Assembly (NCBI GenBank): GCA_000025185.1
Contig: CP001848.1
Span: 1,830,001 to 1,862,000, forward strand
DNA: 32,000 bases
Direction of reading: 5' to 3'
Origin: Pirellula staleyi DSM 6068
GTDB lineage: Bacteria > Planctomycetota > Planctomycetia > Pirellulales > Pirellulaceae
The notes beneath the pieces are model-generated. The model saw only the letters and a list, made by a program, of their open reading frames with translations. It was not told the origin of the DNA and did no database searches. This document shows, one piece after another, positions 5,222-24,620 of this stretch. Made by a program: the position numbers and the translations under genes. Position 1 is the first letter of the stretch. Every line of letters starts with the position of its first letter.

Positions 5222-5242
5222 GCCTCCCTCCACCAAGCGCGC

Positions 5243-6687: not shown

Positions 6688-6701
6688 GATTGCGCGAGAA
6701 A

Positions 6702-9831: not shown

Positions 9832-9857
9832 TCTCTTCGCCCGGGAGTGCTCGCGCG

Positions 9858-12800
9858 ATGGCCGATCAGCTTCTGCTCGCGGAACTAGAGCGACGCTTGG
9901 CCAGCTGCGGGCAGATTGCTGCATGGCTGCGGCCGCTGCGCGAAAGTGGGCTCGCGCTCGGCGGAAACAGCGATGTTTTACGGTGGCTCGTCGACGAGTA
10001 TCTGCCGCACCTCGCGGTGGAATCGGAGCAGCTCGGCAGCTTTGATCCCGGTTTTGCTGGGCGCACTCGCACGCTCGATCACGATGCTGCCGTGCAGCAG
10101 CTGGTGCGAGCACCGGTCGCTTCGCTCGCACAGTTGTCGACGCTCTACGAGCACGGGCGTGAGCGCTTCTCGATGTTCGACCCCGCCAGTGCGTACGTCG
10201 CTCGCTCGGCTGAAGTGGCGTATTTCCTGACGCTCGACGAGCATGCCCCAGCGGCAATTGCTGCATGGTGTCGTCTTGCAGGGAGCGTAGACGAACTTTC
10301 GCTGCGCTACGAGCTGATCGAAGCGCTCGATGCGATCGCTCCCTTGCCACTGGTCGATGCGCTGATAGATGCTTGGCTCGATCGCAGCCGGCAAACCGAT
10401 GACCTCTCCTCGATCATGACGCGAGTGAAAGAGGAACTAGCGCATGCGCGCCGGTCGCAAAGTGCAGCGGCTGAAACGTGGTGGCAGGTTCCGCGTGCAG
10501 CGGGGCGTTTGCGCGTGGTGCTGAAGCTGCTCGATCCGCAGCATCAGTGGGCCGATGTCGACACCTGCCTGCAGCAGTTCCGCACGCTGCAAGAGCCTGT
10601 TGTCGCTCCGGCCTGGGCTGCACTGGGGTATCCCGCCGAGGCTTCGCGGAACTTGCAAGGCTCGGTGATTCGCTATGCCTGGTTCTTGCCGCAGGCGCTC
10701 GAAATGCAGGGGCGTTTTGCGGAAGCGATGGAGCTGCAGGCTGAAATCACGAGCGCGCTGGCACCAGAGAATCAGGCTGCTACGCCGCCGCAATTGGTGG
10801 CGATGCTCCGCCGAGCGCTCCTGTTCCGGATGCACGGGATGCACTCGAAGTTTCACGAGCAATGGCGCGCGCTTGCGCCAGCAGGTCAGTTCGACGAGCT
10901 CGAGCCCGCGCTGCTGTCGGCGAGCCACTGGATCGAGAACCTCACGTTCTCCTACGATGCTGCTCTCGCCGCGCATCTGCTGATGAGCGAAGGATCGCGC
11001 GCGACGCTCCGCTGGCTCGAGCGACGTCTGGGGATCACCTCCTTCGCTGCTGCGACCGATCACGAAATCGGCGCTGCTGTCCAGTCGCAGCTTCCGCGCC
11101 TTTTGGCAACCTTGCCAATCATCGCCGGTGGGCTCTCGCAGCTGCTTGCCCCTCAGCAGTCACTTCGTTTGCTCGAACTGGCGCTCGGCACTTGGGGGGT
11201 AAGCGATAACGATCTCGCCGAGCAACTGCGCCGCGCGCCAGTGCAGGCGCTGCGCGGCCTCGTTCCGTACGTTGCCCAGTGGCTTGTCGCGAGTGGCAAT
11301 CCGCGCCGTGCGGCGTGCTACTTCTTTCCTGAAGCGAGCGCGAATCCTGCAGAGCGAGTCGACCATTTTGCCGCGCTGCTGTCGGCCTGGGGGATCGATC
11401 GGGAGCAGGAAACGCTCGCCTGGATCACTTTTTGCGATGTCGCCTTCTCGATCTTCCGGGCCTTGTCGTGGCACGAAGCGGAGGAGCTTTGGCTCGCCTA
11501 TGTCACGGCCGATCTGGCGTGGACAGCGGCGCGCGGGAATGCCACGCAGTCGCTCCTGGCGGCGAATCTCAGCGAGCGCTGCCTCACGCTTCCGGCCGCT
11601 TATCGAGCTCCCTATGCCAGTGAGTTGTGCACGCAAGTCGGTCTGCTCTTGCGACATGCAGTGGCGAGTGCTGGTGCTGCAGCAGCCGACCGCGTGGTGA
11701 CACTTCAGTCGACGATGCGAGCGCGCCACGTCGCCTCGCGCTCGCTGGTGACACTCAGTCTGCGTGCTGAAAATTTTGATGCCGCGCGAAAGCTCCGCTG
11801 CGAAGCGCTGGTGATCGATGCCGAGCTTTCGCAGCGCGTGCTGCGCGAGCAGATCCGTTTGCGCAGAGCCGAGCGCCATGCGCGCGAGCTTCAGCCTCCG
11901 CGCGCGACTACCTCGTCGATAGCAGCTGCTTCGCCCCCAGGCTGGAGCATGCCGCGCGCGAACGATCAAACTGCCGAGTGGTCGCAAGCACTCCCCTTTG
12001 CGCTCGACCTTCGCGCGAGTCCCGCCTGGGAATCACTCGACCCCGGAACAACCGATCAGCTTGCGCCGCGCGGACTCTCTGATAGCCTTCCTGCCACAGA
12101 CGATGCTCCCGAAATGGCCTACTCGAGCCAGCGACTCGCCGCGACACTCGCGCCACACGAGGCTCTGCTGACGCTCGGTTTTGCACTCACAGGGGAGTTT
12201 GTCTGGAACCTGTTTCGCTGCGAGCAGGATGATCTTGCGCTCGTGGCCAGCGATGCCGGTAGTGGCTCGGCGACCGATGAGCAGCGCGTGCAAAGCGCGA
12301 TCGATCGGCTCGAGATGGCGATGCGCTTGGCCTGGCCCATCGATGCAGCAGCGTCGTGGAAATCGCAGGTGGAGTCGGAAGTAGCCGCGATCAGTTTCGG
12401 GCTCCGTAAATCGCTCGATCGCGCGACACTCGAGCGGCAATACCGGCTGCTGCTCGATCGGCTCGCCGAGTTTCGTCCCTTGGTGGCTGCCGCGCGCAGC
12501 GCGTTTGACGCTGCATTTTCCGGTTCCGCAGCGATCTCGAGCGCCGACTGGAATGCCTGGTGGCAGAACGCGCTGGCCGAGCTTCCCGATACCGCGACCG
12601 TTGAAAGCGAACTCCACGAGCGACTTGCAAGCGCCCTCGACAATCTGCTCGCGGAGCTTTCGACGATCCTTCCCATCGCGACGATCGCCACGCATCTTCG
12701 CCCCGACGATCACCTGCTGCTGCAAGTCGAAGGAACGCTGCATGCGATTCCGCTGGCGATGCTCCACGCTGGTGGTGCTGCAGGCTCACGTGAAAAATTT

Positions 12801-13634
12801 CTGTGCGAGCAGGTCAGCACGTTGCAGGTGATCCCCTCGCTCTTGGCCCTTGCCGATTTGCGTCAGGCAGAAGCAGCGGCGAACTTCGACTCGTCTCGAC
12901 CACAGCTTCTTTCGCTCTCTTCGCTCGACAGAGACGACCCGCGCGAAGCACCGGTAGCGCAGCTGTTCGAGCGTCAGCAAGCGGCGCTCCGCGCGGAGCT
13001 GTTGGGCCAAACGCCGATCGCTATCGACTGGACGATCGCTGGCAGCGATCCCCCCGGGTCGTACAGCACACTGCAAACGATGCTCGCCGAGCGCCGCGCA
13101 ATTCCGCTCGCTACGCTGGTGGGACATGGAAGCAGCTCTCCCGGCGGCATGCTCCTGCAAGCGTCGCCCCCTGAAGCTCGCGAGCGCTACGAGCTGTGGA
13201 CTGGCAGCGAGCTTTGGACTGCCACGAGCGAGCGAACTGCTACCCGCGCGATGACTGAGGATCTTGCGGCGGTCCAGCTGCTGCTGCAAGTGAGCTGCAG
13301 CATCGGGCGCATTCGCCAGTCGGGGCTGCAGGACTTCGATGGATTTTGCATTCGGCTGTTCGAGAGTGGCCTGCGCTCGACCATCGCCGCCCGCTGGCGC
13401 ATTCATGGTAGCCAAGCGGTGCTCTTAGCGACAGAAATCGCACGCGACTATTTGACCCGCCGCATGCGCGAAGCCGATGCGCCGACCAATCACCGGCGCG
13501 ACCGGGCTGAGAGTCTCGCTGCAGTGCGGCTCCGCTGGATTCACGAATTACGCAGCAGCGATGCCGCGACAGCAGCGCGAGCCCGCGAGCGGTCGGCCAC
13601 ACTCGCGGCGTTTGAGCTGTTTGGCCTCGGCTAG
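9858..13634 (+). CDS. Large helical-repeat protein with C-terminal CHAT (caspase-like) protease domain
   Basis: 1258 aa from ATG 9858. The ORF is open from 9756, but that extension overlaps the DoxX-like gene. The C-terminal ~330 aa (about 12700-13634) show LHAIPLAML, a candidate catalytic His in LVGHGSS (codon 13125-13127), a candidate catalytic Cys in LLLQVSCSIG (codon 13296-13298), then AARWRIHGSQAVLLATEIARDYL. The N-terminal ~900 aa are Ala/Leu-rich helical and no P-loop was seen. Confidence 0.8.
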   Translation: MADQLLLAELERRLASCGQIAAWLRPLRESGLALGGNSDVLRWLVDEYLPHLAVESEQLGSFDPGFAGRTRTLDHDAAVQQLVRAPVASLAQLSTLYEHGRERFSMFDPASAYVARSAEVAYFLTLDEHAPAAIAAWCRLAGSVDELSLRYELIEALDAIAPLPLVDALIDAWLDRSRQTDDLSSIMTRVKEELAHARRSQSAAAETWWQVPRAAGRLRVVLKLLDPQHQWADVDTCLQQFRTLQEPVVAPAWAALGYPAEASRNLQGSVIRYAWFLPQALEMQGRFAEAMELQAEITSALAPENQAATPPQLVAMLRRALLFRMHGMHSKFHEQWRALAPAGQFDELEPALLSASHWIENLTFSYDAALAAHLLMSEGSRATLRWLERRLGITSFAAATDHEIGAAVQSQLPRLLATLPIIAGGLSQLLAPQQSLRLLELALGTWGVSDNDLAEQLRRAPVQALRGLVPYVAQWLVASGNPRRAACYFFPEASANPAERVDHFAALLSAWGIDREQETLAWITFCDVAFSIFRALSWHEAEELWLAYVTADLAWTAARGNATQSLLAANLSERCLTLPAAYRAPYASELCTQVGLLLRHAVASAGAAAADRVVTLQSTMRARHVASRSLVTLSLRAENFDAARKLRCEALVIDAELSQRVLREQIRLRRAERHARELQPPRATTSSIAAASPPGWSMPRANDQTAEWSQALPFALDLRASPAWESLDPGTTDQLAPRGLSDSLPATDDAPEMAYSSQRLAATLAPHEALLTLGFALTGEFVWNLFRCEQDDLALVASDAGSGSATDEQRVQSAIDRLEMAMRLAWPIDAAASWKSQVESEVAAISFGLRKSLDRATLERQYRLLLDRLAEFRPLVAAARSAFDAAFSGSAAISSADWNAWWQNALAELPDTATVESELHERLASALDNLLAELSTILPIATIATHLRPDDHLLLQVEGTLHAIPLAMLHAGGAAGSREKFLCEQVSTLQVIPSLLALADLRQAEAAANFDSSRPQLLSLSSLDRDDPREAPVAQLFERQQAALRAELLGQTPIAIDWTIAGSDPPGSYSTLQTMLAERRAIPLATLVGHGSSSPGGMLLQASPPEARERYELWTGSELWTATSERTATRAMTEDLAAVQLLLQVSCSIGRIRQSGLQDFDGFCIRLFESGLRSTIAARWRIHGSQAVLLATEIARDYLTRRMREADAPTNHRRDRAESLAAVRLRWIHELRSSDAATAARARERSATLAAFELFGLG

Positions 13635-14031: not shown

Positions 14032-16023
14032 CTACTCCACTTCGAGACCGGCCCGCACACCTTGTAGCGAAGTCAAAATGGTCTCGAGCTGCGAGCGAAT
14101 CAGTGCGCACTCGTTCAGCTGCTCGTCGATCGTTTGCTCCTGCTGCTGTCGATCGACGATCACCGACTCGAGCTGTCCGCGCACTTCGTCGACCATCACC
14201 CCCATCTGCTCCCCCATGGTGTCGCGCATCTTGGTGATCATCTCCAGCACCTGCTGACGAATCACCCCTTCAAGACGCACCTGCTCGCGCAGTAGCGCCG
14301 TCGACAGCGCTGAAGTTGCGGCCGCACGAATTTCACTCGCTGCTTGTTGGGCCTTGAAGATTGTCCGTCCGAGGCTGATCGCTCCAAGGGTAATTCCGAC
14401 GACCGGAATGGTGAACTTCATCATCACCATCGCGAAGCCGAGGATGCCGTTGAAGATCACACCATTGACCACCTTATCGGCCCCGTGGCTGGCCCCTTCG
14501 ATCATCGCTCCCCAGCCTCCCAGGATTCCGAGTCCCGCGCCAGCAATCCGGTTGAGCGCCGAAACCTCTTGCGTCTTTCGTTCGGGGATCAGGCTGACGG
14601 TGGCGGTGATGCTTTGCTGGTACTCTTCGAGGCTCATCATGAAATGCTTTGCTTGCTCGTCGAGCTGCGTCACGAGCTCGGTGTGATGCGCGCGGAGAAT
14701 CTCCATCAGCACCGTCTCTTGCCATTTCTTCACCTCTTGATCGACGTACTTTTGCAGCGAGTCGATCACCTTATCTTCGACTTTTTGTTTGCTCCGAATC
14801 GTCTCCCAGATGCCGACATCGACAGCCGCAGCGCGCTGCGCCAGACCGGTATCAATTTGCCGAATGAGGGAGCGGAGAGAGCTTTGCGCGTCGGTGACCA
14901 TCACATCGCCGCGGCGCTCGATGGTGTGCAAAATGCGCTCGCGCTGACGCTCGACCGCATCGAGCTTGGGACGCTGTTTTTCCATCATCAACTGCAGCTC
15001 TTCGAGCGGCTGTTTGAGCAGTTTTTCGCGGTAGGGCAGGAGCTGCAAAATCCCTTCGCTCACCGCATTTTCTCCCATGCGAATCGGTGTTCGCAGTTTG
15101 ACACGTCCTCGCTCGCGCGCCAGGAATGTCTCGAGCGCCCGCTCAAACTCAGGGACTCCCGACCGGGTAAGCAGTGGCTCTTGATTTTGCAAACGTCCTG
15201 CCAGCGCGTCGCGAGCGGCGACATAAAAAACGCGGGGACGGCCACCGACACGCGGCTCAAGTTTTTCGCGCGACAGCCGCTTCAGATCGCTCACATCTTC
15301 GGGTGAATCACGCACCGCATCAAACCGGTTCCAGAGGAAAAAGACATCGCTGAGATCGCGGCTCGCCAGTTCGTTTTCGATGAACGAACGCTCGCTCGAC
15401 GAGAACTGCTGTTCGCACGAGAGGACGATCACCATCGCATCGGCATCGACCAGGAACGAGCGAGTCACCTCGGTCCGAGTTTCTGATTCGTTGAGCCCCG
15501 GCGAATCGACAATCTCGACGTTTTGACGACAGAGCTCGAGTGGATAAAAGACTTCGCAGTGCGAATAGGGACTCACATTCCGCCGCTGTCCCGTTGCTTC
15601 ATCGACATCGTCTTGCTCGTCGACTTTGATCGTCACCAGATCCTTGAGCGCAGCGGGATTGGCTTCCAGATCGACCTCCAGCGGCGCGCTAACGATCTCA
15701 GGATCATCGTCGCGAAAATAGAGGACCGCGCGTTTCTTTTCACCGAAGCGAATTCGCGTAATCACCGCCGTGCACGGTGCCACTTTTGCCGGAAGAACAT
15801 TTTGTCCCAACAGGGCGTTGATCAGGGTCGATTTGCCGCGCTTGAACTCGCCAGCGATCAGCACCTTGAACGTATCGGACTCAAGCGCCTTGCGAACGCG
15901 CGCGATTTGATCGGCGCGCGAAATGGAATCGAGACGTCGAAAGGCTTGCTCGAGCTGCACGAGCAACTGGCCGACGTGCGCTCGGTCGCGCGCAAAAGTT
16001 TCAAACGTGGGTGCGGATGTCAT
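14032..16023 (-). CDS. Bacterial dynamin-like protein (DLP-2), intact GTPase motifs, C-terminal membrane hairpin
   Basis: 663 aa from ATG 16023. G1 is GEFKRGKST (15829-15852), G3 is VDSPGLNE and G4 is WNRFD. Long helical stalk. Hydrophobic/glycine-rich paddle AGAGLGILGGWGAMIEG...GILGFAMVMMKFTIPVVGITLGAISLG (about 14362-14560). The start overlaps the upstream stop as ATGA (16023-16020). Confidence 0.9.
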   Translation of the reverse strand: MTSAPTFETFARDRAHVGQLLVQLEQAFRRLDSISRADQIARVRKALESDTFKVLIAGEFKRGKSTLINALLGQNVLPAKVAPCTAVITRIRFGEKKRAVLYFRDDDPEIVSAPLEVDLEANPAALKDLVTIKVDEQDDVDEATGQRRNVSPYSHCEVFYPLELCRQNVEIVDSPGLNESETRTEVTRSFLVDADAMVIVLSCEQQFSSSERSFIENELASRDLSDVFFLWNRFDAVRDSPEDVSDLKRLSREKLEPRVGGRPRVFYVAARDALAGRLQNQEPLLTRSGVPEFERALETFLARERGRVKLRTPIRMGENAVSEGILQLLPYREKLLKQPLEELQLMMEKQRPKLDAVERQRERILHTIERRGDVMVTDAQSSLRSLIRQIDTGLAQRAAAVDVGIWETIRSKQKVEDKVIDSLQKYVDQEVKKWQETVLMEILRAHHTELVTQLDEQAKHFMMSLEEYQQSITATVSLIPERKTQEVSALNRIAGAGLGILGGWGAMIEGASHGADKVVNGVIFNGILGFAMVMMKFTIPVVGITLGAISLGRTIFKAQQAASEIRAAATSALSTALLREQVRLEGVIRQQVLEMITKMRDTMGEQMGVMVDEVRGQLESVIVDRQQQEQTIDEQLNECALIRSQLETILTSLQGVRAGLEVE

Positions 16024-17732
16024 GGAAGTTTCTCCGTCGAGCTGACGCCATCGGCTGGAAGTTGAATTTGAGCAAGTAAGGTGCGGCAAACCTGAATCAC
16101 TTCGTGGGGCGAGTCGGTCTGCTGAACGCGATCGGCTGTCTGGTCGGGTCTGCTCGGCTCGAGCGCTTGCACCAGCTGCTCGAACCAGCGATCGCTCTGC
16201 ACTTTCATGTCACTAGCGATCCGCTCGGTCGAGGCATCGATCCACTCAGCGAGCTGGGTGGTGATTGCGGCGCGCTCGGCCTCGAGCTGGGCTTCGGCCA
16301 TGTGCCGCCGGCGGTTGTTCGTGACGATGATTCCAATCACCGAAACGACAGCGGCGGCGAGCGGAGGCATGATCATGATCGGGATCGAGAGGGCGGCAAT
16401 CGTCGCGGTGAGGGCAATGTAGTCGCGCTTGCCATGTTTTTTTTCGACCTCGGGACGACTTGCGACATCGACCTGCAGCTGCGAGCAGCTGGTGCTCTCG
16501 ATCGACTGGCCGAGAGGGACAAAAATCCGTTCGCTCTCGAGCAAACTGCGCATCCGCCGAGCGTAGAGACTCGCCGCCTCTTCGCCTGCTTGCTTGAGAT
16601 CGCGCACCAGATGAGCGGTCGCTTCGTGCTGCAGATACTCGAGCGATGCCGACGCTAGTCGGGCCGAGAGTTCGAGCGACAGCTGCGACGCGCGGCCGCG
16701 CAGCTGCGCAATGGCCTCGCGCTGGGTCAGGCGATGTTCCCCCTCGAGCATCGAGCGATTACGCGCGGTGGGATCGCTCTCGGCGCGCTCGGGAGGAGGC
16801 TCGGGCAACAGCAGCTCGCTCCGGTCGAGCAGATGGGCCAGCAGAGTGGTCCACCGAACCGCCGCGGCGGGAATGCCAGCGGCAAGCCGCGCGCGAAGTG
16901 CCGCTGCAGGATCTTGCGTGACAAGCTCAATCTGAGCCGCTCGGCGCGAGACAAAACGCTCGAGCCGCGTGGCTAGTTCCTCGCGATCTGCGGCGCTTGC
17001 GACGCTGTCGAGGTCGCTCACCACTAGCATCACCGGCGCTGCAGCGTAGGGCAACACGAGTTCGTCGAGGACCCGCTGTTCGCTCGTCGAGAGGAGCTGA
17101 TGCGCGGTGAGGGTCATTACGACGACGGCCGAGCGGAGGCTGACTCGCAGCAGCGACTCGACCGACGCTTCGCTTCGCAAATCGGGAAGGGAAGCAACGG
17201 CCCAGTGGCCATGGCCGAGCAGCGGCGAAGGGAGTTGCACCAGCACCCCGGGTCCGATATCGCGCGGACGTAGCGGCAGCTCGAGCGGTTCGCTATTTCC
17301 CGAAAGCAGCGTGGCGCTGGCGGCTGTGCCGTAAGCAATCGTGATCGGCCCGGCACTCTCTTGCCAGTTCCCCGCAAAAAGTTCGGTCTCGAGGAGCTGA
17401 TTCACCAGCAGCAGACGCTGTTTGGCCGAGCTTCCCAAAATCGTGACGCAGGGAATTTCGGCAGCAGCCAGCTGCGCCGCTGTCGCCGCTTCGTTTCGTA
17501 CTTCGCGAAAGCTTCGAATGGCGGTGGCCAGTTTCGAAAAACTGCCATGCTGATGACCGGGCAGCTCTTGCTCGACCCGCGTCACCACATCGGCCATCAC
17601 ACCAATGGCTGCCTGCAGGTTGGTCGGAATAGTGACGCGCGCCGCGAGTGATTTGGCAGAGATGGGGCTACCACAGCTGCTGCAGAAGCGAGCTTGATCG
17701 CGCAGCGGAGTTCCACAATGGTTGCAGTTCAT
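16020..17732 (-). CDS. Zinc-ribbon protein with degenerate dynamin-like G domain (predicted pseudo-GTPase) and C-terminal membrane hairpin
   Basis: 570 aa from ATG 17732. N-terminal ribbon CNHCGTPLRDQARFCSSCG. VTILGSSAKQRLLLVNQLLETELF aligns to the P-loop/helix-1 of the two neighbouring DLPs (VLIAGEFKRGKSTLINALLGQNVL), but GxxxxGKS is lost. ASLPDL replaces DxPG and VVSDLD replaces (N/T)KxD. Hydrophobic hairpin YIALTATIAALSIPIMIMPPLAAAVVSVIGIIVTNN (about 16317-16421). Confidence 0.75.
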   Translation of the reverse strand: MNCNHCGTPLRDQARFCSSCGSPISAKSLAARVTIPTNLQAAIGVMADVVTRVEQELPGHQHGSFSKLATAIRSFREVRNEAATAAQLAAAEIPCVTILGSSAKQRLLLVNQLLETELFAGNWQESAGPITIAYGTAASATLLSGNSEPLELPLRPRDIGPGVLVQLPSPLLGHGHWAVASLPDLRSEASVESLLRVSLRSAVVVMTLTAHQLLSTSEQRVLDELVLPYAAAPVMLVVSDLDSVASAADREELATRLERFVSRRAAQIELVTQDPAAALRARLAAGIPAAAVRWTTLLAHLLDRSELLLPEPPPERAESDPTARNRSMLEGEHRLTQREAIAQLRGRASQLSLELSARLASASLEYLQHEATAHLVRDLKQAGEEAASLYARRMRSLLESERIFVPLGQSIESTSCSQLQVDVASRPEVEKKHGKRDYIALTATIAALSIPIMIMPPLAAAVVSVIGIIVTNNRRRHMAEAQLEAERAAITTQLAEWIDASTERIASDMKVQSDRWFEQLVQALEPSRPDQTADRVQQTDSPHEVIQVCRTLLAQIQLPADGVSSTEKLP

Positions 17733-18766
17733 TTCGACGACTCCTCGCCAGGATGCGAACTGGAGGTTTTGATCGAGCGGAGCGGCGCACCGCAGCTGAA
17801 ACAAAAACGATCGCTGGAAGTCAGGGGCGTTTTACAAACGCTACAGACGACCGCTTGCTGCTGAGGTGCCTCGAGCAGCAGCACCGATTGTTGGGCGAGC
17901 GCGACGGCCTCGCTCCGAAGTTTTTGATACCCCTCCTCGCGAATCCAGCGATCGAGTTCCTTCACGCGCCGAATCGGCCAGGGATGGGTCAGTTCATGTT
18001 CGGTCGGAGCCCCACGCAGCATCGAAGTCATGTTGCTATCGAACTCCTCGCTCAGCTCGCGGGCTTGCTCGAGACAAGCATCGAGGTTCAGCGTCACTGG
18101 CACAGGTGTGCTGAAACGCATTAAGCGGAGCAGCGTTTGCATCGCAGCGTCGAAGCTGTCGCAGGCTAGCAGCCCCGCGCGATCGGCGGAGTATTCGGCC
18201 GAGCGAATGAAGTGCATCAGCTGCGAGAAAGCGACCGACTTCACGATGCCGCCAACCACCGGAATCAGATCGACGAGCCCCAGCATTTTGACACCGATTT
18301 GCTGGAAATAGACATGCTTGAACAAGATGTGGCCGAGTTCGTGTCCGATCACGAACTGCAACTCTTCGCGCGAGAGTGACTCGACCAGCCCACCGCCGAT
18401 CACCACGTGAGGAGTTTCAACACCGGCTGTCCAGGCGTTCGTGCCGTAGCCAATGAAGAAGTCGGGATAGGGATAGACACCGAGCGTGCGACAGCAGTGC
18501 CGAAAAAGTTCGTGCAGCGACGGGAACTGCTTTTCGCTAACGCGGAGGTTCGTTGCCAGGTTGACAGCCCGCATCTGATACTCGGTGAAGAGTTCGCTAT
18601 GCACACGAACCAAATCGCCGAAGCCTGCCGACTCGCGCAAGAGCGACATTGCATGCTCATCTTGATGATGTCGATAGCGTCCTGGCGAGAGAGACGCAAA
18701 GCTGTGCGCCGGCGTGGTCGACGGCACCAGTTGCTGCGAAAGGGGCTCGAAACGAGGGATATTCAT
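17729..18766 (-). CDS. M48-family Zn-metallopeptidase with C-terminal zinc ribbon
   Basis: HELGH at codons 18329-18343. Third-ligand region RSAEYSADRAGLL. THPWPIRRVKEL is typical of the M48 C-terminus. C-terminal ribbon CSVCKTPLTSSDRFCFSCG (17792-17845). No convincing full transmembrane helices. The stop overlaps the next start as ATGA (17732-17729). Confidence 0.85.
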   Translation of the reverse strand: MNIPRFEPLSQQLVPSTTPAHSFASLSPGRYRHHQDEHAMSLLRESAGFGDLVRVHSELFTEYQMRAVNLATNLRVSEKQFPSLHELFRHCCRTLGVYPYPDFFIGYGTNAWTAGVETPHVVIGGGLVESLSREELQFVIGHELGHILFKHVYFQQIGVKMLGLVDLIPVVGGIVKSVAFSQLMHFIRSAEYSADRAGLLACDSFDAAMQTLLRLMRFSTPVPVTLNLDACLEQARELSEEFDSNMTSMLRGAPTEHELTHPWPIRRVKELDRWIREEGYQKLRSEAVALAQQSVLLLEAPQQQAVVCSVCKTPLTSSDRFCFSCGAPLRSIKTSSSHPGEESSK

Positions 18767-18775
18767 ACTTTTTTC

Positions 18776-21358
18776 CTACTCACTGCGCTTTCTTTGAACG
18801 ATCCCCAGCGACTGACTGGCGGCGAGTTGCATCAGATGATCGAGGCGCTGATCTTGCCGCTCGAGCCGCTGCTGAAGCGCCTCGAGATGCGCGAGCTGAT
18901 CGCGCTCGTTCTGCAATCGACGACGCTCTTGCTCCATCACTCCAGCGATCCACTGGCGATAGTGCCGGACCTGCACGCGCAAATTCTCCTGAATCGCGAG
19001 GCACATGTTTTGAGCCAGCGACGGGGCACTTTGCTTCATGGTCGCAATGGGACTTTCCATCACCGATTCAAACAGGGTGTCGACTTCGCTCGCGCACTCT
19101 TCTTTGACTGCACTAAACGACTTGCCCGACATCCAGCCGAGCACCCCTCCGACAAGGCCACCGATCACCGTTCCGACCCCCGGAATGATCGAGCCGACAC
19201 CAGCGCCGACCGCAGCGCCGCCGAGAATCCCACCCATGTTTGAGGAGGCGATCGACTGCACTTTCTCGGCCAGCGAACCGGCGAGATCGCTCATGTCGAC
19301 ATCGGTCCGGACATCGGTGGTCGAAGCAATTTCGCCCACTTGGAGGTGAAACTTTTCACCGACAATGCGGTAGCGCTCGCGGAGGCCTGCGAAGAGTTGA
19401 TTTTGAATGCGGCGCAGCTCTCCTTCCGCTTGCGACTGGAGTTCCTGTTGCAAACTCGTGCTGAGGTATGACAAGTCGCGCTCGACGCGCGACTGCAGAT
19501 TCGTGAGCAGCTCGCGGAGCTGATTGGAGTTCGCGCAGTCGGTGATCTCTTGCCGAATGCGCGACTTTACTTCCGAGAGTTTCAGCTCTAAGTGACTCGT
19601 GCCGTTGCTGGCCAAAACGGTCGAAAGTCGCTTGATTTGCGGCAAGATTTTGCCCACTTCGGTTTCGCAGTAGATCACCGGATCGGGAATCTGCTGCGCT
19701 TCGAGCGCGGCAATTGTGGTGCGATAGGCTTGCTCGGCGGCGGCGCTTGCCGCGCGAATCTGCTCGGTGAATTGCCGGATCGCCACCACTGCGCGGGCTG
19801 CCACAATCATCGGCCGTTCGTGCGAGAGAATCTGCATCATCAGCGCTAGGTCGCGTTCGAACTTTTGCTGCCACTCGGGATGATCGCCGCGCAGGGCACG
19901 CTCGGCTGCCATGGTGAACGAGTGGAGCTGACGATGATCGCGACCAACTTCCGCAGCGAATCGTTTTTCCCCCATCCGCCGCGCTTCTTCGATTTGCTCT
20001 TCCCCCGATTCACCGAGAATCTCGGCGTTTTCCATCGCACGGTCGACCTTCGTGAGGACGAGCATCAAGTGGGGCATCACTCCCGACAAAGCTCGCACAA
20101 AGTCGCGCGTGCTGCCACTCACCGGCTGCTGCAAATCCGAGAGCACAATCGCGCCATCCGCTTCGCCACGAATCACTTGCCACGCGCGGCGCGCGTTGGC
20201 TTCGACGTTGGTGTTCACCCCCGGGGTATCGATCACCACTAGCCCGGGCGGGAGTCGCGGACTCGGAAAATCGAGCCACAGCTGCTCGACATCTTTCCCT
20301 TCGCGATCCTGGTCAGTGAGCAGCCGGATATGTTCGCGAAAGGTCTGCTCGCGCACTTCCCCTTGCTGGGATAACTCGAGCTCGAGCGCTTGCAGCCGCG
20401 CGCCACAAGCGACCGTATGCTCGGGCAAATAGTCGAGCTGTAGCGACAGATCGATGAGCCGCTGCTGATGCTCGTCGAGCGTTTGACGGTAGCGATCGAG
20501 GCTCGTCTGCGACAGCCGAATCGTCTCTTGCGCGGAGACGATCAGCTTTTGCTGCGCTTCGATCGCGAGCTGCTGCTCGCGCGCACGCTCGAGTTGTCCG
20601 ATATGGGCCTGCCCGGCCGGATCGACCAGCATTTTTTGGAGTGGCCAGTTCCAGGGGCGTCGCCAATCGGCCAAGTTGCGGACATAAAACGGCAGCGCTT
20701 TGCCAGCCGCATCGAGCTCGGCACGAAAGGTGGCCGCTTCGTTTTGCTGCAGCTCAAGCTGCTGCTCGAGCTGCGCCAGCGCCCGCTGATGCTTCGCCAG
20801 TCGCTGCTCTTCGTGCACAATCCGATGCTGATCGACCACGATCGCTTGCTCGGTTTCCGCAATCATACGTGGCAGATCGTCGACGTCGGTCACCGCTTTG
20901 GCGCACGCTTGTCGGGCTACTTCGATCGCGCGCACGATCTCCGGCGTACGATCGTGATAACGGCTCTGGAACGTCTCCTCTTTCCCACCGGCACGAACGA
21001 CGCGGTAGCCGATTTCGCGGGCTGGCCGGATGAAGGTGACGGTCCCTGTGCATTCGCGCACCGCCGAGCTGAGGAGCGCTTCTCCGAGCAGCGCGTTGAG
21101 GAACGTGCTCTTCCCCGCCTTCTTTTCGCCGACGACGCACACAAACAGCTCGCTCCGCTGCAAGCGGCGCTGGCTCTCGGCGATCAGCGCTTGGACGGTC
21201 CGTGTCGGCTCATCACCTAGTCGATCACGATGGCGCGATAGTTCCTCGAGCAGCTTGAGCGAATCGTGTACCGCCGCGAGCAGTTGCTGATCGATCGAAC
21301 GGCCGGACGCAGACTCGACCATTTCAGCATCAACGATGTTGTGGGGCTGCGTTGTCAT
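18776..21358 (-). CDS. Bacterial dynamin-like protein (DLP-1), intact GTPase motifs, coiled-coil insert, glycine-zipper membrane hairpin
   Basis: 860 aa. G1 is GEKKAGKST (about 21104-21130), G3 is VIDTPGVNT (aa 377-380) and G4 is LTKVD. Glycine-zipper segment NMGGILGGAAVGAGVGSIIPGVGTVIGGLVGGVLGWMSG (about 19128-19245). A 9-nt spacer separates it from the M48 gene. Confidence 0.9.
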   Translation of the reverse strand: MTTQPHNIVDAEMVESASGRSIDQQLLAAVHDSLKLLEELSRHRDRLGDEPTRTVQALIAESQRRLQRSELFVCVVGEKKAGKSTFLNALLGEALLSSAVRECTGTVTFIRPAREIGYRVVRAGGKEETFQSRYHDRTPEIVRAIEVARQACAKAVTDVDDLPRMIAETEQAIVVDQHRIVHEEQRLAKHQRALAQLEQQLELQQNEAATFRAELDAAGKALPFYVRNLADWRRPWNWPLQKMLVDPAGQAHIGQLERAREQQLAIEAQQKLIVSAQETIRLSQTSLDRYRQTLDEHQQRLIDLSLQLDYLPEHTVACGARLQALELELSQQGEVREQTFREHIRLLTDQDREGKDVEQLWLDFPSPRLPPGLVVIDTPGVNTNVEANARRAWQVIRGEADGAIVLSDLQQPVSGSTRDFVRALSGVMPHLMLVLTKVDRAMENAEILGESGEEQIEEARRMGEKRFAAEVGRDHRQLHSFTMAAERALRGDHPEWQQKFERDLALMMQILSHERPMIVAARAVVAIRQFTEQIRAASAAAEQAYRTTIAALEAQQIPDPVIYCETEVGKILPQIKRLSTVLASNGTSHLELKLSEVKSRIRQEITDCANSNQLRELLTNLQSRVERDLSYLSTSLQQELQSQAEGELRRIQNQLFAGLRERYRIVGEKFHLQVGEIASTTDVRTDVDMSDLAGSLAEKVQSIASSNMGGILGGAAVGAGVGSIIPGVGTVIGGLVGGVLGWMSGKSFSAVKEECASEVDTLFESVMESPIATMKQSAPSLAQNMCLAIQENLRVQVRHYRQWIAGVMEQERRRLQNERDQLAHLEALQQRLERQDQRLDHLMQLAASQSLGIVQRKRSE

Positions 21359-21389
21359 CGTGTCACGTTTCCAGGGAATTCGTCGCGGT

Positions 21390-22139
21390 TCAGCAAATCT
21401 TGTCGAGCAAACAGTGCTGGAGTTTTTCGCGGGCCTGTTTTAACTGCGTCTTAATCGTTTCCAGACCGACGCCACGGCGCTCGGCAATCTCTTGGTAAGA
21501 GTGATCTTTGAAGTACTGCAGCCAGATGGCGCGGCGCTGCGCGGAGGGGAGAAAATAGATCGCCTCGCGCACCAGACGTGCTTCCTCGCGGCGGAGCACG
21601 ACGTCGTCGTCGGTGGAGCTGAGGGTATCCTTCAGCGTGTCGTGGTCGAGCGAAAGTTGATCGACCGGCGATTTCAGCCCCAGCCGCCGCGCCTCTTGCT
21701 CGAAGAGTTTGCGGACCCGGTTAACGACCGACGTGTAGAGGTAGCGCTCGGGATGCTCGGGACGAAACTGCTGCTCGATTACCTTGCGCCGAAATGAACT
21801 TTGCCCAGCGCTGCTGACGAAATGGGGGAGCACAAACCGCTGGCTGCAGTAGTCTCGATCGCGCGCCCGCCACTGCTGATTGTGGAGCTCGCGCTGCTGA
21901 TCACCAGGGTCCTGCGCCGTGAGGATCGCGTCGTCACTAGGGAGCCTCAGTAGCTCGCCGCCGTACGCTTTTTGCTTCGCGCGTACGACCCCGAGCGCAA
22001 CGGTTGTGAGCCAGTCGCTGGCAGTCGAATAAAGCCGCTTCCAAGCGCGCGGATCGTTGCTCGCAAGTTGCGACCAAAACGGCTCGTGGGCGAGCAGTCG
22101 CGCGGTCGCAATGGCAGCCGGATTGGGCTTAAACTCCAT
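21390..22139 (-). CDS. Sigma-70 family (ECF-like) RNA polymerase sigma factor, divergent region 2
   Basis: The C-terminus LPSAQRRAIWLQYFKDHSYQEIAERRGVGLETIKTQLKQAREKL is a clear region 4 helix-turn-helix. ERYLYTSVVNRVRKLFEQEARR resembles region 2.3/2.4. A long atypical N-terminal part precedes these. Confidence 0.75.
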   Translation of the reverse strand: MEFKPNPAAIATARLLAHEPFWSQLASNDPRAWKRLYSTASDWLTTVALGVVRAKQKAYGGELLRLPSDDAILTAQDPGDQQRELHNQQWRARDRDYCSQRFVLPHFVSSAGQSSFRRKVIEQQFRPEHPERYLYTSVVNRVRKLFEQEARRLGLKSPVDQLSLDHDTLKDTLSSTDDDVVLRREEARLVREAIYFLPSAQRRAIWLQYFKDHSYQEIAERRGVGLETIKTQLKQAREKLQHCLLDKIC

Positions 22140-23148
22140 CGCTCCCCCCTTCCGCCAACGTCAATGTTTCGTGAGCCGGGAGATAACGCACCGCCACGAC
22201 GAGCTGCTGTTTCGCGGCAAGATCGGCCAGATCGATTTCGAGCAGCGATGCTTGCCAACCGAGTGTGCTGGGAGGGTTGCTGCGCTCGAGCGGGATGGCA
22301 AGCATCCAGGAGTAGCCGAGCAGCGTGGCGACCTGCGCCGGTGATAAGCGCGCAAGCTCGTCAGCGGCGGCTGGTCGAATCAATATCGAAAGCGTGAGAG
22401 TTTTCGAGGCCTCGCGCGCTGCGGGTTGATCGACGTAGAACCAGCCTTCGAGCAGCGATCGCTCGGTGGCATTCCCTGTGGCTGCAGTTTGTGCTGCGGC
22501 TGTCGGCGCTTCGCGCGGTTCGAGTACGAGGGGCAAATTCCACTGCACGCCGGTCGCTTGATCTTCCAGTTCCACGATCACGACAAGGACCGGTGGATCG
22601 CTCGCGCTGGCGAGGGTGCTCACCCCAATCGACCGATCGGAAGATCGACCGAGCACACGAAATTCGCCGCTGGCGAGCGGCTGTGGCAAGCGCGCTGTGT
22701 CGAGGGCAAGCTGGTAACTCGCTTCCGGTGTTGGCGGTGCTGCGGCTGGAGGAGATGGAGCCTCGGCAGAGCGCACGGCTGCTGGCTGCAGCGCGACGAC
22801 ACCTAAGTAAGGCGCACGCGCAGCGCGCGACCATTCGAGGAACAGCAGGTCGAGCGGAGTTCCTGCAGCAGAGCAGTACAGCTCGAGCGTGCGCCCTTGG
22901 CCGGGCGTGTGTTCTGCGAGCAACAGCCGACCATGCGCGAGATAAAGCGCCGCTGCTGCGGAGTTCGCGAGAAGCTCGCGCAAGGTGCCGACGGCGTCGC
23001 CACTGAGCTCGATCGACAGGAGCGAGCCCCCCTGCTCGGCCGCCACGCTTTGCAAAGCGCGCGAACCGGCATCGGCCAGCTGCAGATCGTCGACCAGACG
23101 CCTGAGCCCAGCATCGCGCTCGCTTCGCCGATCACCAAAGCTGGACAT
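22129..23148 (-). CDS. Hypothetical protein (339 aa), first gene of the sigma/dynamin cluster
   Basis: Codon usage is like neighbouring genes when read by eye (GC-rich third positions, same preferred Leu, Asp and Ala codons). ATG 23148 (MSSFGDRRSERD); the ORF is open from GTG 23244. The 3' end overlaps the sigma-factor start by 11 nt. No recognisable domain, no TM helix; Ala/Pro-rich linker PSPPAAAPPTPE. Confidence 0.6.
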   Translation of the reverse strand: MSSFGDRRSERDAGLRRLVDDLQLADAGSRALQSVAAEQGGSLLSIELSGDAVGTLRELLANSAAAALYLAHGRLLLAEHTPGQGRTLELYCSAAGTPLDLLFLEWSRAARAPYLGVVALQPAAVRSAEAPSPPAAAPPTPEASYQLALDTARLPQPLASGEFRVLGRSSDRSIGVSTLASASDPPVLVVIVELEDQATGVQWNLPLVLEPREAPTAAAQTAATGNATERSLLEGWFYVDQPAAREASKTLTLSILIRPAAADELARLSPAQVATLLGYSWMLAIPLERSNPPSTLGWQASLLEIDLADLAAKQQLVVAVRYLPAHETLTLAEGGSDGV

Positions 23149-23774: not shown

Positions 23775-24620
23775 CTATCGCGAGGCGGTGAGGCGTGGAT
23801 CACCACTTGGCTGCATGGCAAACGAGCTTTCGTTGCGCACGCCGGTGAAGATTTCCCATTCCTGCTGGCTGGTGAACGAGCGGACATTTCCGCCGGCGAA
23901 CACCACGTTCATGTGCGACTTGTGGAACGGAATGACGGTGTAGAGACCCCGCAGCGGGCTGAAGCGAAAGCGGCGAGGCTGCCACGGTGCTTCGAAATCG
24001 CGGGCCAGCACTTGTTGGCTCAGTTCCCCCGGTCGGTCTTTCGATTTCTGCGACCCGAGCTGGGCCAAGGTGCGAACCACTTGCTCGCGTCCCGGCACCA
24101 CTTCGGCCTGCCATGCGCCACGCTCGGCGTTATACATCAGCACGGTCCGCTCGGGGACGGCGTACTGGCTCAGTGTCTTGCAGTCGAACAGGTAGCTCGA
24201 CGAGAAGGTATCAAACAGCGAGGCGGAATCTTCGTAGCTGCCAACATCGCCCGGCGATTTGAACAGCGATACATGTCCCGAAACATAGGGAAACAGTCCC
24301 ACAGTGGCGCTCTGGCGCAGCTCGGTCATCGTGCCGACACCGCAGTGGAACGGCATCACACCGTTGTAGCTGTCGGCATACATCTGGGTCGCTAGGGCAA
24401 TTTGGCGAAGATTGTTCTGCGATTCGGTGCTTCGAGCCGCCTGTCGGGCCGACTCGAGGGCGGGGAAAATGATCGAGCAAAAGACGGCAATGACCGCCAT
24501 TGCTACGAGCATTTCCACCAATGTAAGTCCTTGACGTGTAACAGCTTGCTGAGTCGATGCAGGGCCGCTGACGAGCGTTTTGCTCGTGCCGCAGCAAGCA
24601 GGCGTGCGTGGGCATTCCAT
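23775..24620 (-). CDS. DUF1559-like protein with prepilin-type N-terminal motif
   Basis: QGLTLVEMLVAMAVIAVFCSIIFPALESARQAARSTESQNNLRQIALATQMY, then a C-terminal variant of the H-X9-DG block (HMNVVFAGGNVRSF). The start is uncertain: ATG 24620 was chosen and ATG 24680 is also in frame. Confidence 0.8.
   Translation of the reverse strand: MECPRTPACCGTSKTLVSGPASTQQAVTRQGLTLVEMLVAMAVIAVFCSIIFPALESARQAARSTESQNNLRQIALATQMYADSYNGVMPFHCGVGTMTELRQSATVGLFPYVSGHVSLFKSPGDVGSYEDSASLFDTFSSSYLFDCKTLSQYAVPERTVLMYNAERGAWQAEVVPGREQVVRTLAQLGSQKSKDRPGELSQQVLARDFEAPWQPRRFRFSPLRGLYTVIPFHKSHMNVVFAGGNVRSFTSQQEWEIFTGVRNESSFAMQPSGDPRLTASR

What the first reader, a model, noticed from the sequence alone, without database searches (positions are those of the whole stretch)
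14032..23148. Sigma-factor-headed cluster: two dynamin-like GTPases bracketing an M48 metalloprotease and a dynamin-like pseudo-GTPase
Six co-directional minus-strand genes have tiny or negative spacers: an 11-nt overlap, 31 nt, 9 nt, ATGA, ATGA. In order they encode an unknown 339-aa protein, a divergent sigma-70/ECF-like factor, and DLP-1 (860 aa; GEKKAGKST, DTPG, TKVD). Then come an M48 Zn-protease (HELGH, AEYSADRAG, THPWPIRRV) ending in a zinc ribbon, a 570-aa zinc-ribbon protein with a dynamin-like but motif-dead G domain, and DLP-2 (663 aa; GEFKRGKST, DSPG, NRFD). All three dynamin-like proteins carry a hydrophobic or glycine-zipper hairpin near the C-terminus (19128-19245, 16317-16421, 14362-14560), where bacterial DLPs have their membrane paddle. 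The bacterial dynamin loci I know are DLP pairs or fusions: Nostoc BDLP, B. subtilis DynA, mycobacterial IniA/IniC, Campylobacter DLP1/2, ETEC LeoABC and the Eleos LeoA/LeoBC anti-phage system. I know of none where the pair brackets a protease and a pseudo-GTPase paralogue behind its own sigma factor. The tight coupling suggests a stoichiometric membrane-associated complex. Plausible roles are stress-induced membrane repair or remodelling with protease-controlled activation, or an Eleos-like abortive or defensive module. No mobility genes flank it.
Basis: partly seen in the sequence, partly recalled or inferred. Interest (0 to 1): 0.88.

Follow-up and report, generated by a model that had tools for sequence, protein, structure and literature searches.

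The report
Three-dynamin plus M48 protease gene cassette
Pirellula staleyi carries a rare four-gene module, also found in at least three other bacterial phyla, that joins three membrane-binding dynamin-like proteins to a zinc protease; I found no paper describing it, and it probably acts in membrane defence or repair.

Summary
Window 14032-23148 is Pirellula staleyi DSM 6068 Psta_1462-1467, with the stated gene calls, spacers and motifs.

The core is four genes: DLP1, M48 protease, a middle DLP and DLP2. I found it in 14 distinct loci. The named hosts are Planctomycetota, Myxococcota/"Deltaproteobacteria", Acidobacteriota and unclassified Proteobacteria. M48-mid-DLP2 is always contiguous where contigs allow, and DLP1 lies before or after that block. 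Two natural M48::mid fusion proteins tie the protease to the middle DLP.

The 570-aa protein has a full bacterial-dynamin (BDLP) fold: AF2 pLDDT 80.5, Foldseek top hit Nostoc BDLP at 1.6e-11. Its dead GTPase motifs are a lineage-specific loss, because most orthologues keep GxxxxGK[ST].

The sigma factor and the 339-aa gene are not found next to any other cassette, so they are a P. staleyi add-on and not part of the system.

Two other cassettes sit in clear defence islands (SspABC; bSEFIR/PDC-M68B). Two more sit beside an integrase or a TraG-like gene.

Ten literature searches and PADLOC v2 found no description. Verdict: a new variant of bacterial dynamin systems. Function is untested; it is probably a GTP-driven membrane machine coupled to a protease, serving defence or envelope stress.

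The parts
22129..23148 (-). 339-aa protein of unknown function (Psta_1467). It overlaps the sigma gene by 11 nt. It is a P. staleyi-specific neighbour and not part of the conserved cassette.
   Evidence: ORF. No Pfam, NCBIfam or PADLOC hit. Annotated as a hypothetical protein. No homologue in any other cassette locus.
21390..22139 (-). Divergent ECF-type sigma-70 factor (Psta_1466), 31 nt upstream of DLP1. Lineage-specific association with the cassette.
   Evidence: Sigma70_r4_2 8e-12, Sigma70_ECF 2.8e-6. TIGR02937 48.7 bits against a cutoff of 42.9, covering only model positions 44-165. Absent upstream of the cassettes in L003 and L006 and in L012-L023.
18776..21358 (-). DLP1 (Psta_1465, 860 aa): dynamin-like GTPase with intact G1 (21104-21130), G3 (20219-20230) and G4 (20042-20053). 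The G domain carries a coiled-coil insertion of about 250 aa (about 20249-21001) with a conserved aromatic-rich motif (20639-20695). A C-terminal glycine-zipper hairpin lies at 19130-19237.
   Evidence: Dynamin_N 4e-16 over aa 73-436, Gly-zipper 1.2e-3. Ten-orthologue alignment with invariant GEKxxGKSTF, DTPGVN and a conserved G4 Asp. Profile against PDB: Nostoc BDLP 4.7e-15. Motif coordinates.
17729..18766 (-). M48 zinc metalloprotease (Psta_1464, 345 aa). HELGH at 18329-18343, third zinc ligand in AEYSADRAG at 18173-18199, THPW at 17963-17989, one hydrophobic segment at 18227-18301, and a C-terminal zinc ribbon at 17789-17845.
   Evidence: Peptidase_M48 3e-18 (66.7 bits against a cutoff of 20.3), Zn_ribbon_3 5e-6. 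H142, E143, H146, E191 and H261 are invariant across 41 homologues. AF2 pLDDT 85.3. Weak Foldseek hits to ZMPSTE24, BepA, HtpX and BlaR1.
16020..17732 (-). Middle DLP (Psta_1463, 570 aa): third dynamin paralogue with an N-terminal zinc ribbon (17670-17726). Dead G1 GSSAKQRL (17412-17435), dead G3 SLPD (17181-17192), G4 position SDLD (17007-17018), and a hydrophobic hairpin at 16314-16424.
   Evidence: Alignment with orthologues that keep GEKGRGKT and DTPG. Family profile against PDB sequences: BDLP 2j68 4.9e-15. AF2 pLDDT 80.5. Foldseek: BDLP 1.6e-11, IniA 5e-10, Cj-DLP, mitofusins. 18 of 24 family members hit Pfam Dynamin_N.
14032..16023 (-). DLP2 (Psta_1462, 663 aa): canonical BDLP-type GTPase. 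G1 at 15826-15852, G3 at 15496-15507, G4 at 15319-15330, hydrophobic paddle at 14356-14475.
   Evidence: Dynamin_N 3e-28 and Dynamin-like_hel_bact 2e-17. Nostoc BDLP 2j68 4.6e-46 over aa 38-658. 44% identity to the L003 and L005 orthologues.

Best explanation
The conserved unit is a four-gene, translationally coupled cassette. It encodes three paralogous bacterial dynamin-like proteins (DLP1, middle DLP, DLP2) and an M48 zinc protease.

All four proteins lack signal peptides, and each DLP has a C-terminal hydrophobic hairpin. I therefore infer that they assemble on the cytoplasmic face of the inner membrane.

Inferred working model:
- DLP1 and DLP2 both have intact G1, G3 and G4. They form the GTP-hydrolysing heterotypic pair that binds and remodels or seals membrane, as in other bacterial DLP pairs.
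- The middle DLP has relaxed catalytic motifs across the family and dead ones in P. staleyi. It acts as a membrane-anchored adaptor that docks the M48 protease to the assembly.
- Proteolysis is coupled to dynamin assembly. Either the protease cleaves one of the DLPs to switch the machine on or off (in the manner of mitochondrial OMA1 acting on OPA1), or the assembled machine licenses the protease to cut a target at a perturbed membrane.
- Biological role: most likely a response to phage or mobile elements, or to membrane damage.

My estimates: the four genes form one functional unit, about 0.9; anti-phage or conflict role, about 0.45; envelope-stress repair or quality control, about 0.35. The overall confidence of 0.55 refers to the model as a whole (functional unit, membrane-associated dynamin machine, protease docked through the middle DLP), not to one specific biological role.

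In P. staleyi the cassette has come to lie 31 nt behind an ECF-type sigma gene. This may give it stress-dependent expression there, but it is not part of the conserved system.

Shown computationally: gene content, conservation, fusion, folds and motif states. Inferred: complex formation, topology, protease coupling and biological role.
For: Conservation: 14 distinct loci carry the cassette.
- DLP1-first order: the window, L003, L005, L006.
- M48-first order: L012-L016 and L019-L023.
- M48-mid-DLP2 is contiguous wherever contigs allow. Start/stop overlaps also occur in L003 and L005.
- Named hosts: Planctomycetota, Deltaproteobacteria/Myxococcales MAGs, Holophagaceae, and a Proteobacteria MAG.

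Link between protease and middle DLP: natural fusions P0138 (M48 at 171-442 plus mid at 453-926, with HExxH, P-loop and DTPG intact) and P0147.

Specificity of the link: only the closest M48 relatives (36-38% identity) sit with DLPs. More distant ones are stand-alone.

Folds and motifs. Hydrophobic hairpins in all three DLPs and their orthologues.

Defence or mobile context:
- L016: TnpB, an AAA+DLP+DLP trio, and SspA/B/C (1.5e-116, 4e-100, 3e-98) within about 3 kb.
- L003: bSEFIR 4e-12, PDC-M68B 2e-41, DUF4062-TPR, CTD12, PIN, DDE transposase.
- L021: tyrosine integrase plus the same AAA+DLP+DLP trio.
- L012: TraG/TraD-like protein.

Resemblance to Eleos: PADLOC LeoA 2e-27 for DLP2 and LeoBC 5e-13 for DLP1. 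Dynamin pairs defend against phage in a P-loop-dependent way (bioRxiv 10.1101/2022.05.11.491447).
Against: - There are no experimental data of any kind.
- The flanks in P. staleyi, L005 and L015 carry no recognisable defence or mobility genes. The defence-island association is therefore 2 strong plus 2 suggestive cases out of about 7 informative contexts, without a background control.
- The cassette was not found on plasmids or viral contigs.
- Two actinobacterial loci (L017, L018) have a DLP1-like, mid-like, DLP2-like trio with no M48 in the DNA held for them (L017 has 10-kb flanks; L018 is a 6.9-kb contig). The protease is therefore not obligatory for every relative.
- The LeoA/LeoBC matches are probably generic BDLP similarity. 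The NCBIfam LeoA family scores 21.5 bits against a cutoff of 325, and ETEC LeoA is not hit by DLP2.
- Nothing shows what the protease cleaves. The OMA1-OPA1 parallel is an analogy from general knowledge, not a tested homology.
Confidence: 0.55

Rival explanations
1. It is an envelope-stress membrane-repair module. The DLPs seal or fuse damaged cytoplasmic membrane, as B. subtilis DynA or mycobacterial IniA/IniC do. The M48 enzyme acts like HtpX and removes damaged membrane proteins. In P. staleyi the ECF sigma factor switches it on.
For: - An ECF-type sigma gene lies 31 nt upstream on the same strand.
- BDLP-type folds with membrane hairpins.
- M48 is weakly HtpX-like in NCBIfam and resembles HtpX, BepA and Ste24 in fold.
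- The P. staleyi, L005 and L015 flanks are not defence-like.
- DynA-type repair and phage protection are not mutually exclusive (citing Guo et al. 2022).
Against: - The sigma gene accompanies the cassette only in P. staleyi and its 98%-identical relatives.
- The cassette is rare and patchy: about 30 clusters at 50% identity among 1.84 billion representatives, and 5 full cassettes among 185,579 species genomes found with one narrow pattern. That is unusual for a housekeeping repair function.
- Several copies sit among defence or mobility genes.
Confidence: 0.3
2. It is simply an Eleos (LeoA/LeoBC) anti-phage system with two accessory genes.
For: PADLOC LeoA 2.1e-27 for DLP2 and LeoBC 4.7e-13 for DLP1. 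In the rotated order DLP2 and DLP1 are adjacent, like a Leo pair. Some copies lie in defence islands.
Against: - DLP2 matches both the LeoA and the LeoBC profiles over nearly its full length, which points to generic similarity.
- The NCBIfam LeoA/HP0731 family is far below its cutoff, 21.5 against 325 bits.
- The best solved relative is Nostoc BDLP (4.6e-46), and ETEC LeoA is not retrieved at 1e-3.
- Eleos is defined as a two-gene system. Here M48 and a third DLP are conserved and one pair is naturally fused, so they are core components and not accessories.
Confidence: 0.1
3. It is a planctomycete-specific membrane-trafficking or invagination machine, related to the unusual endomembranes and uptake behaviour of this phylum.
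For: The host is Pirellula staleyi. Dynamins drive membrane fission and fusion in eukaryotes (general knowledge).
Against: The same cassette occurs in Myxococcota/Deltaproteobacteria, Holophagaceae and Proteobacteria MAGs.
Confidence: 0.04
4. It is a chance juxtaposition of unrelated genes, or an annotation artefact.
For: None beyond the lack of transcript data.
Against: Overlapping start and stop codons, conservation in 14 loci, and M48::mid fusions.
Confidence: 0.01

Closest known systems
Eleos (formerly 'Dynamins'; LeoA + LeoBC) anti-phage system and the ETEC LeoABC operon
   Same: Operon of paralogous bacterial dynamin-like GTPases with intact P-loops. DLP2 and DLP1 hit the PADLOC LeoA and LeoBC profiles. 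Some copies lie in defence islands.
   Different: Eleos has two genes (three when LeoBC is split) and no protease. Here a third DLP with a zinc ribbon and an M48 protease are conserved core genes. DLP2 is of the Nostoc BDLP type and does not retrieve ETEC LeoA. The NCBIfam LeoA family cutoff is not met. No anti-phage test exists.
Nostoc punctiforme BDLP (2J68/2J69/2W6D) and tandem BDLP pairs such as Campylobacter jejuni DLP1/DLP2
   Same: Best sequence and fold match for all three paralogues: G domain, helical neck and trunk, hydrophobic paddle. The logic of a heterotypic pair also matches.
   Different: There are three paralogues instead of two. DLP1 has a coiled-coil insertion of about 250-350 aa inside the G domain. 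The middle one carries a zinc ribbon and decayed catalytic motifs. A protease is linked to them.
B. subtilis DynA and mycobacterial IniA/IniB/IniC
   Same: Stress-associated bacterial dynamins that act on the cytoplasmic membrane. IniA is the second-best fold hit for the middle DLP.
   Different: DynA is a two-headed fusion and Ini is a three-gene operon with no protease. The NCBIfam DynA equivalog scores far below its cutoff, 61 against 1600 bits.
Mitochondrial OMA1 (M48 protease) acting on OPA1 (dynamin-like GTPase)
   Same: An M48-family metalloprotease is functionally paired with a membrane-anchored dynamin-superfamily GTPase. This offers a concrete, testable model in which the protease cleaves a DLP on stress. 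The basis is established knowledge of the pathway; it is an analogy only.
   Different: Homology to OMA1 specifically was not tested, because no OMA1 structure or sequence was available in the tools. The DLPs here are of the BDLP/mitofusin type, not the OPA1/Mgm1 type. Cleavage has not been demonstrated.
HtpX/Ste24/BepA M48 peptidases
   Same: HExxH...E zinc site, Pfam PF01435 above its gathering score, weak fold matches.
   Different: The multi-pass membrane topology of HtpX and Ste24 is absent, with at most one hydrophobic segment. It has its own helical accessory regions and a zinc ribbon. It forms a small clade linked to DLPs.

Membership tests
Dynamin superfamily, bacterial dynamin-like protein (BDLP) class: DLP1 and DLP2 | G domain with G1 GxxxxGK[ST], G3 DxxG and G4 [NT]KxD-like motifs, scoring above the Pfam Dynamin_N gathering score | tested here: met
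   DLP1 scores 59.9 bits and DLP2 99.4 bits against a cutoff of 27. Motifs located and invariant in DLP1 orthologues.
Dynamin superfamily, BDLP class: DLP1 and DLP2 | Helical neck/trunk and a membrane-binding paddle after the G domain | tested here: met
   DLP2: Dynamin-like_hel_bact 2e-17, and a full-length match to Nostoc BDLP at 4.6e-46. Hydrophobic hairpins in both proteins.
Dynamin superfamily, BDLP class: 570-aa middle protein | BDLP fold (G domain plus helical bundles plus paddle) | tested here: met
   AF2 pLDDT 80.5. Foldseek: BDLP 1.6e-11, IniA 5e-10, mitofusins, all at probability 1.0. Family profile against BDLP: 4.9e-15. 18 of 24 family members hit Dynamin_N.
Dynamin superfamily, BDLP class: 570-aa middle protein | Catalytically competent G1/G3/G4 | tested here: not met
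   P. staleyi has GSSAKQRL, SLPD and SDLD at these positions. 33 of 39 relatives keep the P-loop. About half lack the G3 glycine, and G4 is T[HF]xD in most members.
Peptidase family M48 | HExxH plus a downstream Glu zinc ligand, above the Pfam gathering score | tested here: met
   66.7 bits against a cutoff of 20.3. H142, E143, H146 and E191 invariant in 41 homologues.
HtpX (NCBIfam equivalogs) | Score above the equivalog cutoff; multi-pass membrane topology | tested here: not met
   Best score 34.8 bits against a cutoff of 355. Only one hydrophobic segment.
Eleos (LeoA/LeoBC) defence system | Two-gene operon made of one LeoBC-type and one LeoA-type dynamin | tested here: inconclusive
   PADLOC profile hits exist (LeoA 2e-27 for DLP2, LeoBC 5e-13 for DLP1). 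However, DLP2 hits both profiles, the genes are separated by two conserved extra genes in this order, and PADLOC's system-calling thresholds could not be run.
Eleos (LeoA/LeoBC) defence system | Membership in the LeoA/HP0731 protein family | tested here: not met
   NF041922 scores 21.5 bits against a cutoff of 325. ETEC LeoA (4AUR) is not among the DLP2 hits at 1e-3.
Eleos (LeoA/LeoBC) defence system | Protects against phage in a manner that depends on the P-loop | not testable with these tools
   Requires phage challenge of cassette-bearing strains and P-loop mutants (criterion).
ECF (group 4) sigma-70 factor | Sigma regions 2 and 4; score above the TIGR02937 cutoff | tested here: inconclusive
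   TIGR02937 scores 48.7 bits against a cutoff of 42.9, and region 4 is clear (8e-12). Only model positions 44-165 align, and Pfam region 2 is not detected. The N-terminal 115 aa or so are divergent.
ECF sigma regulon including the cassette | Co-transcription with, or sigma-dependent promoter control of, the downstream genes | not testable with these tools
   Consensus promoter and terminator scans and an ECF-motif search gave nothing usable. RNA-seq or 5'-RACE is needed.
OMA1-OPA1-type protease/dynamin regulatory pair (functional analogy) | The M48 protease cleaves the partner dynamin | not testable with these tools
   Only genomic linkage and the M48::mid fusion are available.

The most novel reading that the evidence does not exclude
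The cassette is a previously unrecognised, horizontally mobile immune or abortive-infection system. In it, a trio of bacterial dynamins senses or remodels phage-perturbed membrane and gates an M48 protease, which either processes one dynamin (a bacterial counterpart of stress-induced OMA1-OPA1 cleavage) or destroys a target. It would be the first protease-coupled dynamin machine in prokaryotes.
Probability: 0.35. Interest if true: 0.8.

Novelty: new variant of a known kind. Interest (0 to 1): 0.62.

Why it matters
Bacterial dynamins are known as single proteins, pairs or fusions, and their physiological roles are still poorly defined. A conserved module that fixes three paralogues to an M48 protease gives three things:

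1. A defined four-component system in which to ask how dynamin assembly is regulated in bacteria.
2. A natural pseudo-enzyme series. The middle DLP runs from an intact P-loop to fully dead motifs, which helps separate scaffold roles from catalytic roles.
3. A testable bacterial parallel to protease control of dynamins in mitochondria.

If it defends against phages, it extends the Eleos-type dynamin defences with a proteolytic arm.

Tried and rejected
- A word-indexed homologue search with the 570-aa protein found only its 98% twin. The same search with the family alignment failed because of the candidate cap, giving only 2 hits. The exhaustive representative search was needed instead.
- The broad alignment A2 was too diverse for a locus scan, so the narrower A3 was used. 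Its pattern targets an intact P-loop, so the counts of loci are lower bounds.
- More distant M48 homologues (P0010, P0013, cyanobacterial P0033) were checked and are not linked to dynamins.
- Sigma-70 promoter and terminator scans were at background level. A search for ECF-type -35/-10 motifs and for shared k-mers upstream of the 339-aa gene and of DLP1 gave nothing convincing.
- No cassette was found on plasmids or viral contigs.
- Lenient Pfam and PADLOC searches gave nothing for the 339-aa protein (E up to 0.1) and, in Pfam at E up to 1, nothing for the 1292-aa neighbour, the N-terminal extensions of the delta-clade M48 proteins, or small upstream ORFs; PADLOC at 1e-3 also gave nothing for the 1292-aa neighbour. 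The DLP1 insertion gave only sub-threshold coiled-coil-like hits.
- Ten literature searches combining dynamin with M48, HtpX, OMA1, defence or conflict systems found no description of this architecture.
- I considered that the 339-aa protein might be a detached homologue of the long N-terminal extension of the delta-clade M48 proteins, and rejected this because there is no BLAST similarity.

Full report
**Source and observation**

The window is Pirellula staleyi DSM 6068. The M48 protein is 100% identical to the deposited one. All six proteins match ADB16137-ADB16142 (Psta_1462-Psta_1467) exactly.

Domain searches confirm the following:
- A divergent ECF-type sigma factor: Sigma70_r4_2 8e-12; TIGR02937 48.7 bits against a cutoff of 42.9, with only the C-terminal two thirds aligning.
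- DLP1: Dynamin_N 4e-16 stretched over aa 73-436, which implies an insertion of about 250 aa in the G domain, plus a glycine zipper.
- An M48 protease: 3e-18, with a C-terminal zinc ribbon.
- The 570-aa protein: Pfam sees only an N-terminal zinc ribbon.
- DLP2: Dynamin_N 3e-28 and the bacterial dynamin helical domain 2e-17.

Every quoted motif and the three hydrophobic hairpins were located.

**The 570-aa protein is a real dynamin paralogue**

- Orthologues from other loci align with it along their whole length and keep GEKGRGKT/GEKARGKT/GGHRSGKS and DAPG/DTPG. P. staleyi reads GSSAKQRL and SLPD at those positions.
- Those orthologues hit the DLP2 G domain directly by BLAST (8e-9 and 3e-8).
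- A profile of 24 family members finds Nostoc BDLP as the best solved relative (4.9e-15), followed by IniA, Campylobacter DLP and mitofusins.
- 18 of the 24 members match Pfam Dynamin_N.
- An AlphaFold model of the P. staleyi protein (mean pLDDT 80.5) retrieves BDLP (1.6e-11), IniA, Cj-DLP1/2, mitofusins and LeoA, all at probability 1.0.

A motif census of 39 members shows the P-loop intact in 33 and lost in six, P. staleyi included. The G3 glycine is replaced in about half, and G4 reads T[HF]xD in most members. The family is therefore a third DLP paralogue under relaxed catalytic constraint, and the pseudo-GTPase state in P. staleyi is the end of that trend. The family HMM scores DLP2 orthologues at 74-96 bits and DLP1 orthologues at 24-32 bits, so it is closer to DLP2.

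**The conserved unit**

- L003: DLP1 860 aa, M48, middle DLP split in two, DLP2.
- L005.
- L006.

More distant M48 relatives in archaea, cyanobacteria and elsewhere are stand-alone.

A scan of 185,579 species genomes with a middle-DLP pattern found five further complete cassettes: two Deltaproteobacteria MAGs, one Myxococcales MAG, one Proteobacteria MAG and a Holophagaceae genome. A metagenome scan added five more. In all ten of these the order is M48-mid-DLP2-DLP1.

The invariant core is therefore M48-mid-DLP2, with DLP1 on either side. This makes 14 distinct loci, of which 10 show all four genes. The rest are cut by contig ends, and none contradicts the pattern.

Two proteins in the representative library are natural M48::middle-DLP fusions with intact HExxH, P-loop and DTPG. 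That is classic evidence of a physical and functional link.

The cassette is rare. There are about 30 clusters at 50% identity among 1.84 billion representatives.

Two actinobacterial loci carry a DLP1-like, mid-like, DLP2-like trio with no M48 in the DNA held for them (L017 with 10-kb flanks; L018 is a 6.9-kb contig).

**What is not conserved**

No homologue of the sigma factor or of the 339-aa protein occurs in the DNA held for any other cassette locus. They accompany it only in the 98%-identical relatives. The sigma-factor "head" is a local feature of P. staleyi.

**Anatomy of the parts**

- DLP1 orthologues share invariant GEKxxGKSTF, DTPGVN and a conserved G4 Asp within [TS][KRQ]xD (TKVD in P. 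staleyi). They also share the coiled-coil insertion, which carries an aromatic-rich motif (LPFY...WRRPWNW in P. staleyi; APWWxFW in the delta clade), and a glycine-zipper hairpin.
- DLP2 aligns with Nostoc BDLP over almost its full length (4.6e-46). ETEC LeoA is not retrieved at 1e-3.
- The M48 catalytic residues H142, E143, H146, E191 and H261 are invariant in 41 homologues. The model (pLDDT 85.3) weakly resembles ZMPSTE24, BepA, HtpX and BlaR1. It has at most one hydrophobic segment.
- The zinc ribbon at the M48 C-terminus and the one at the middle DLP's N-terminus are 54% identical over 22 residues.

**Genomic context**

- L016: TnpB, an AAA+DLP+DLP trio, the cassette, ParA, then SspA/SspB/SspC at 1.5e-116, 4e-100 and 3e-98.
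- L003: a bSEFIR fragment (4e-12), PDC-M68B (2e-41), DUF4062-TPR, CTD12, PIN and a DDE transposase.
- L021: a tyrosine integrase, an HTH gene and the same AAA+DLP+DLP trio in another orientation.
- L012: a TraG/TraD-like ATPase and a ComM-like gene.
- The P. staleyi window (sulfatases, DUF1559 pilin-like proteins, a ClC channel), L005 and L015: nothing of this kind.
- Plasmids and viral contigs: no copy found.

The defence or mobile flavour is real but partial, and it lacks a background control.

**Mechanism**

Shown: four conserved, overlapping genes; three BDLP folds with membrane hairpins; two catalytically intact GTPases and one relaxed or dead; a catalytically intact M48; and the M48::mid fusion.

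Inferred:
- DLP1 and DLP2 are the GTP-driven pair on the cytoplasmic face of the membrane.
- The middle DLP is the adaptor that brings in the protease.
- Proteolysis is coupled to dynamin assembly. Either the protease cleaves a DLP (by analogy with OMA1 cleaving OPA1, established knowledge but only an analogy), or it cleaves an external target.

My probabilities: functional unit about 0.9; defence or conflict role about 0.45; envelope-stress repair about 0.35. In P. staleyi the sigma gene may add stress control.

**Comparison with known systems**

The nearest named system is Eleos (LeoA/LeoBC). It is a two-gene dynamin defence whose P-loops are required for protection (bioRxiv 10.1101/2022.05.11.491447).

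DLP2 and DLP1 hit the PADLOC LeoA and LeoBC profiles (2e-27 and 5e-13). However, DLP2 hits both profiles, the NCBIfam LeoA family scores 21.5 bits against a cutoff of 325, and the best solved relative is BDLP, not LeoA. I therefore do not file the cassette as Eleos.

M48 and the middle DLP hit no PADLOC v2 model meaningfully. Ten literature searches found no paper that links bacterial dynamins with an M48 protease. The library is incomplete, so an existing description cannot be fully excluded.

**Verdict**

This is a real, conserved and apparently undescribed variant of bacterial dynamin systems, with three DLP paralogues plus an M48 protease. Its emphasis on the sigma factor, the bracketing order and the pseudo-GTPase as defining features does not generalise. 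Interest is moderate to high, at 0.62.

Noticed in passing
L016:2678-7462 and L021:13881-18759: A separate three-gene module lies directly beside the cassette in two loci, in different orientations. It consists of an AAA ATPase (weakly TRIP13/IetA-like) and two dynamin-like GTPases of about 589 and 685 aa. These loci therefore carry five DLP genes. I know of no name for this trio.
   Followed up: partly
P0138 (930 aa) and P0147 (691 aa), from the representative library: Natural fusions of the M48 protease with the middle DLP. Each also has an N-terminal extension of about 170 aa with no Pfam match. The delta-clade M48 proteins have similar extensions of 150-270 aa.
   Followed up: partly
L017:7662-13620 (Couchioplanes caeruleus) and L018:2512-6910 (Kineosporiaceae MAG): Actinobacterial loci carry DLP1-like, mid-like and DLP2-like genes in a row, with no M48 detected in the DNA held (L017 has 10-kb flanks; L018 is a 6.9-kb contig). 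This may be a protease-less relative of the cassette.
   Followed up: partly
L003:10981-12682: The middle DLP is split into 304-aa and 260-aa ORFs separated by 4 nt. This could be a frameshift, an assembly error or a genuine split like LeoB/LeoC.
   Followed up: no
window 9756-13634 (+): A 1292-aa ORF converges on DLP2 (called as 1258 aa in the MAG L001). It has no Pfam or PADLOC hit even at lenient thresholds. By eye its C-terminal part has a His...Cys pattern (GHGSS...SCSIG) reminiscent of CHAT/caspase-like domains, but this is unverified.
   Followed up: partly
window 17789-17845 and 17670-17726: The zinc ribbon that ends the M48 protein and the one that begins the next gene's product are 54% identical over 22 residues. 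This suggests a local duplication or a shared partner.
   Followed up: no
window 486-9283 and 23775-30925: The flanks are typical planctomycete content: a DUF7133 plus cytochrome c protein (486-3500), two sulfatases (3584-5221, 7751-9283), two DUF1559/prepilin-type proteins (5561-6526, 23775-24680), a ClC channel (25064-26470), an HtrA-like trypsin-PDZ protease (27292-28962) and a PQQ beta-propeller protein (29414-30925). No mobility or defence genes were recognised.
   Followed up: yes
L016:19165-22267: A complete-looking SspA-SspB-SspC phosphorothioation defence module lies about 3 kb downstream of the Holophagaceae cassette. SspC runs off the end of the locus.
   Followed up: yes
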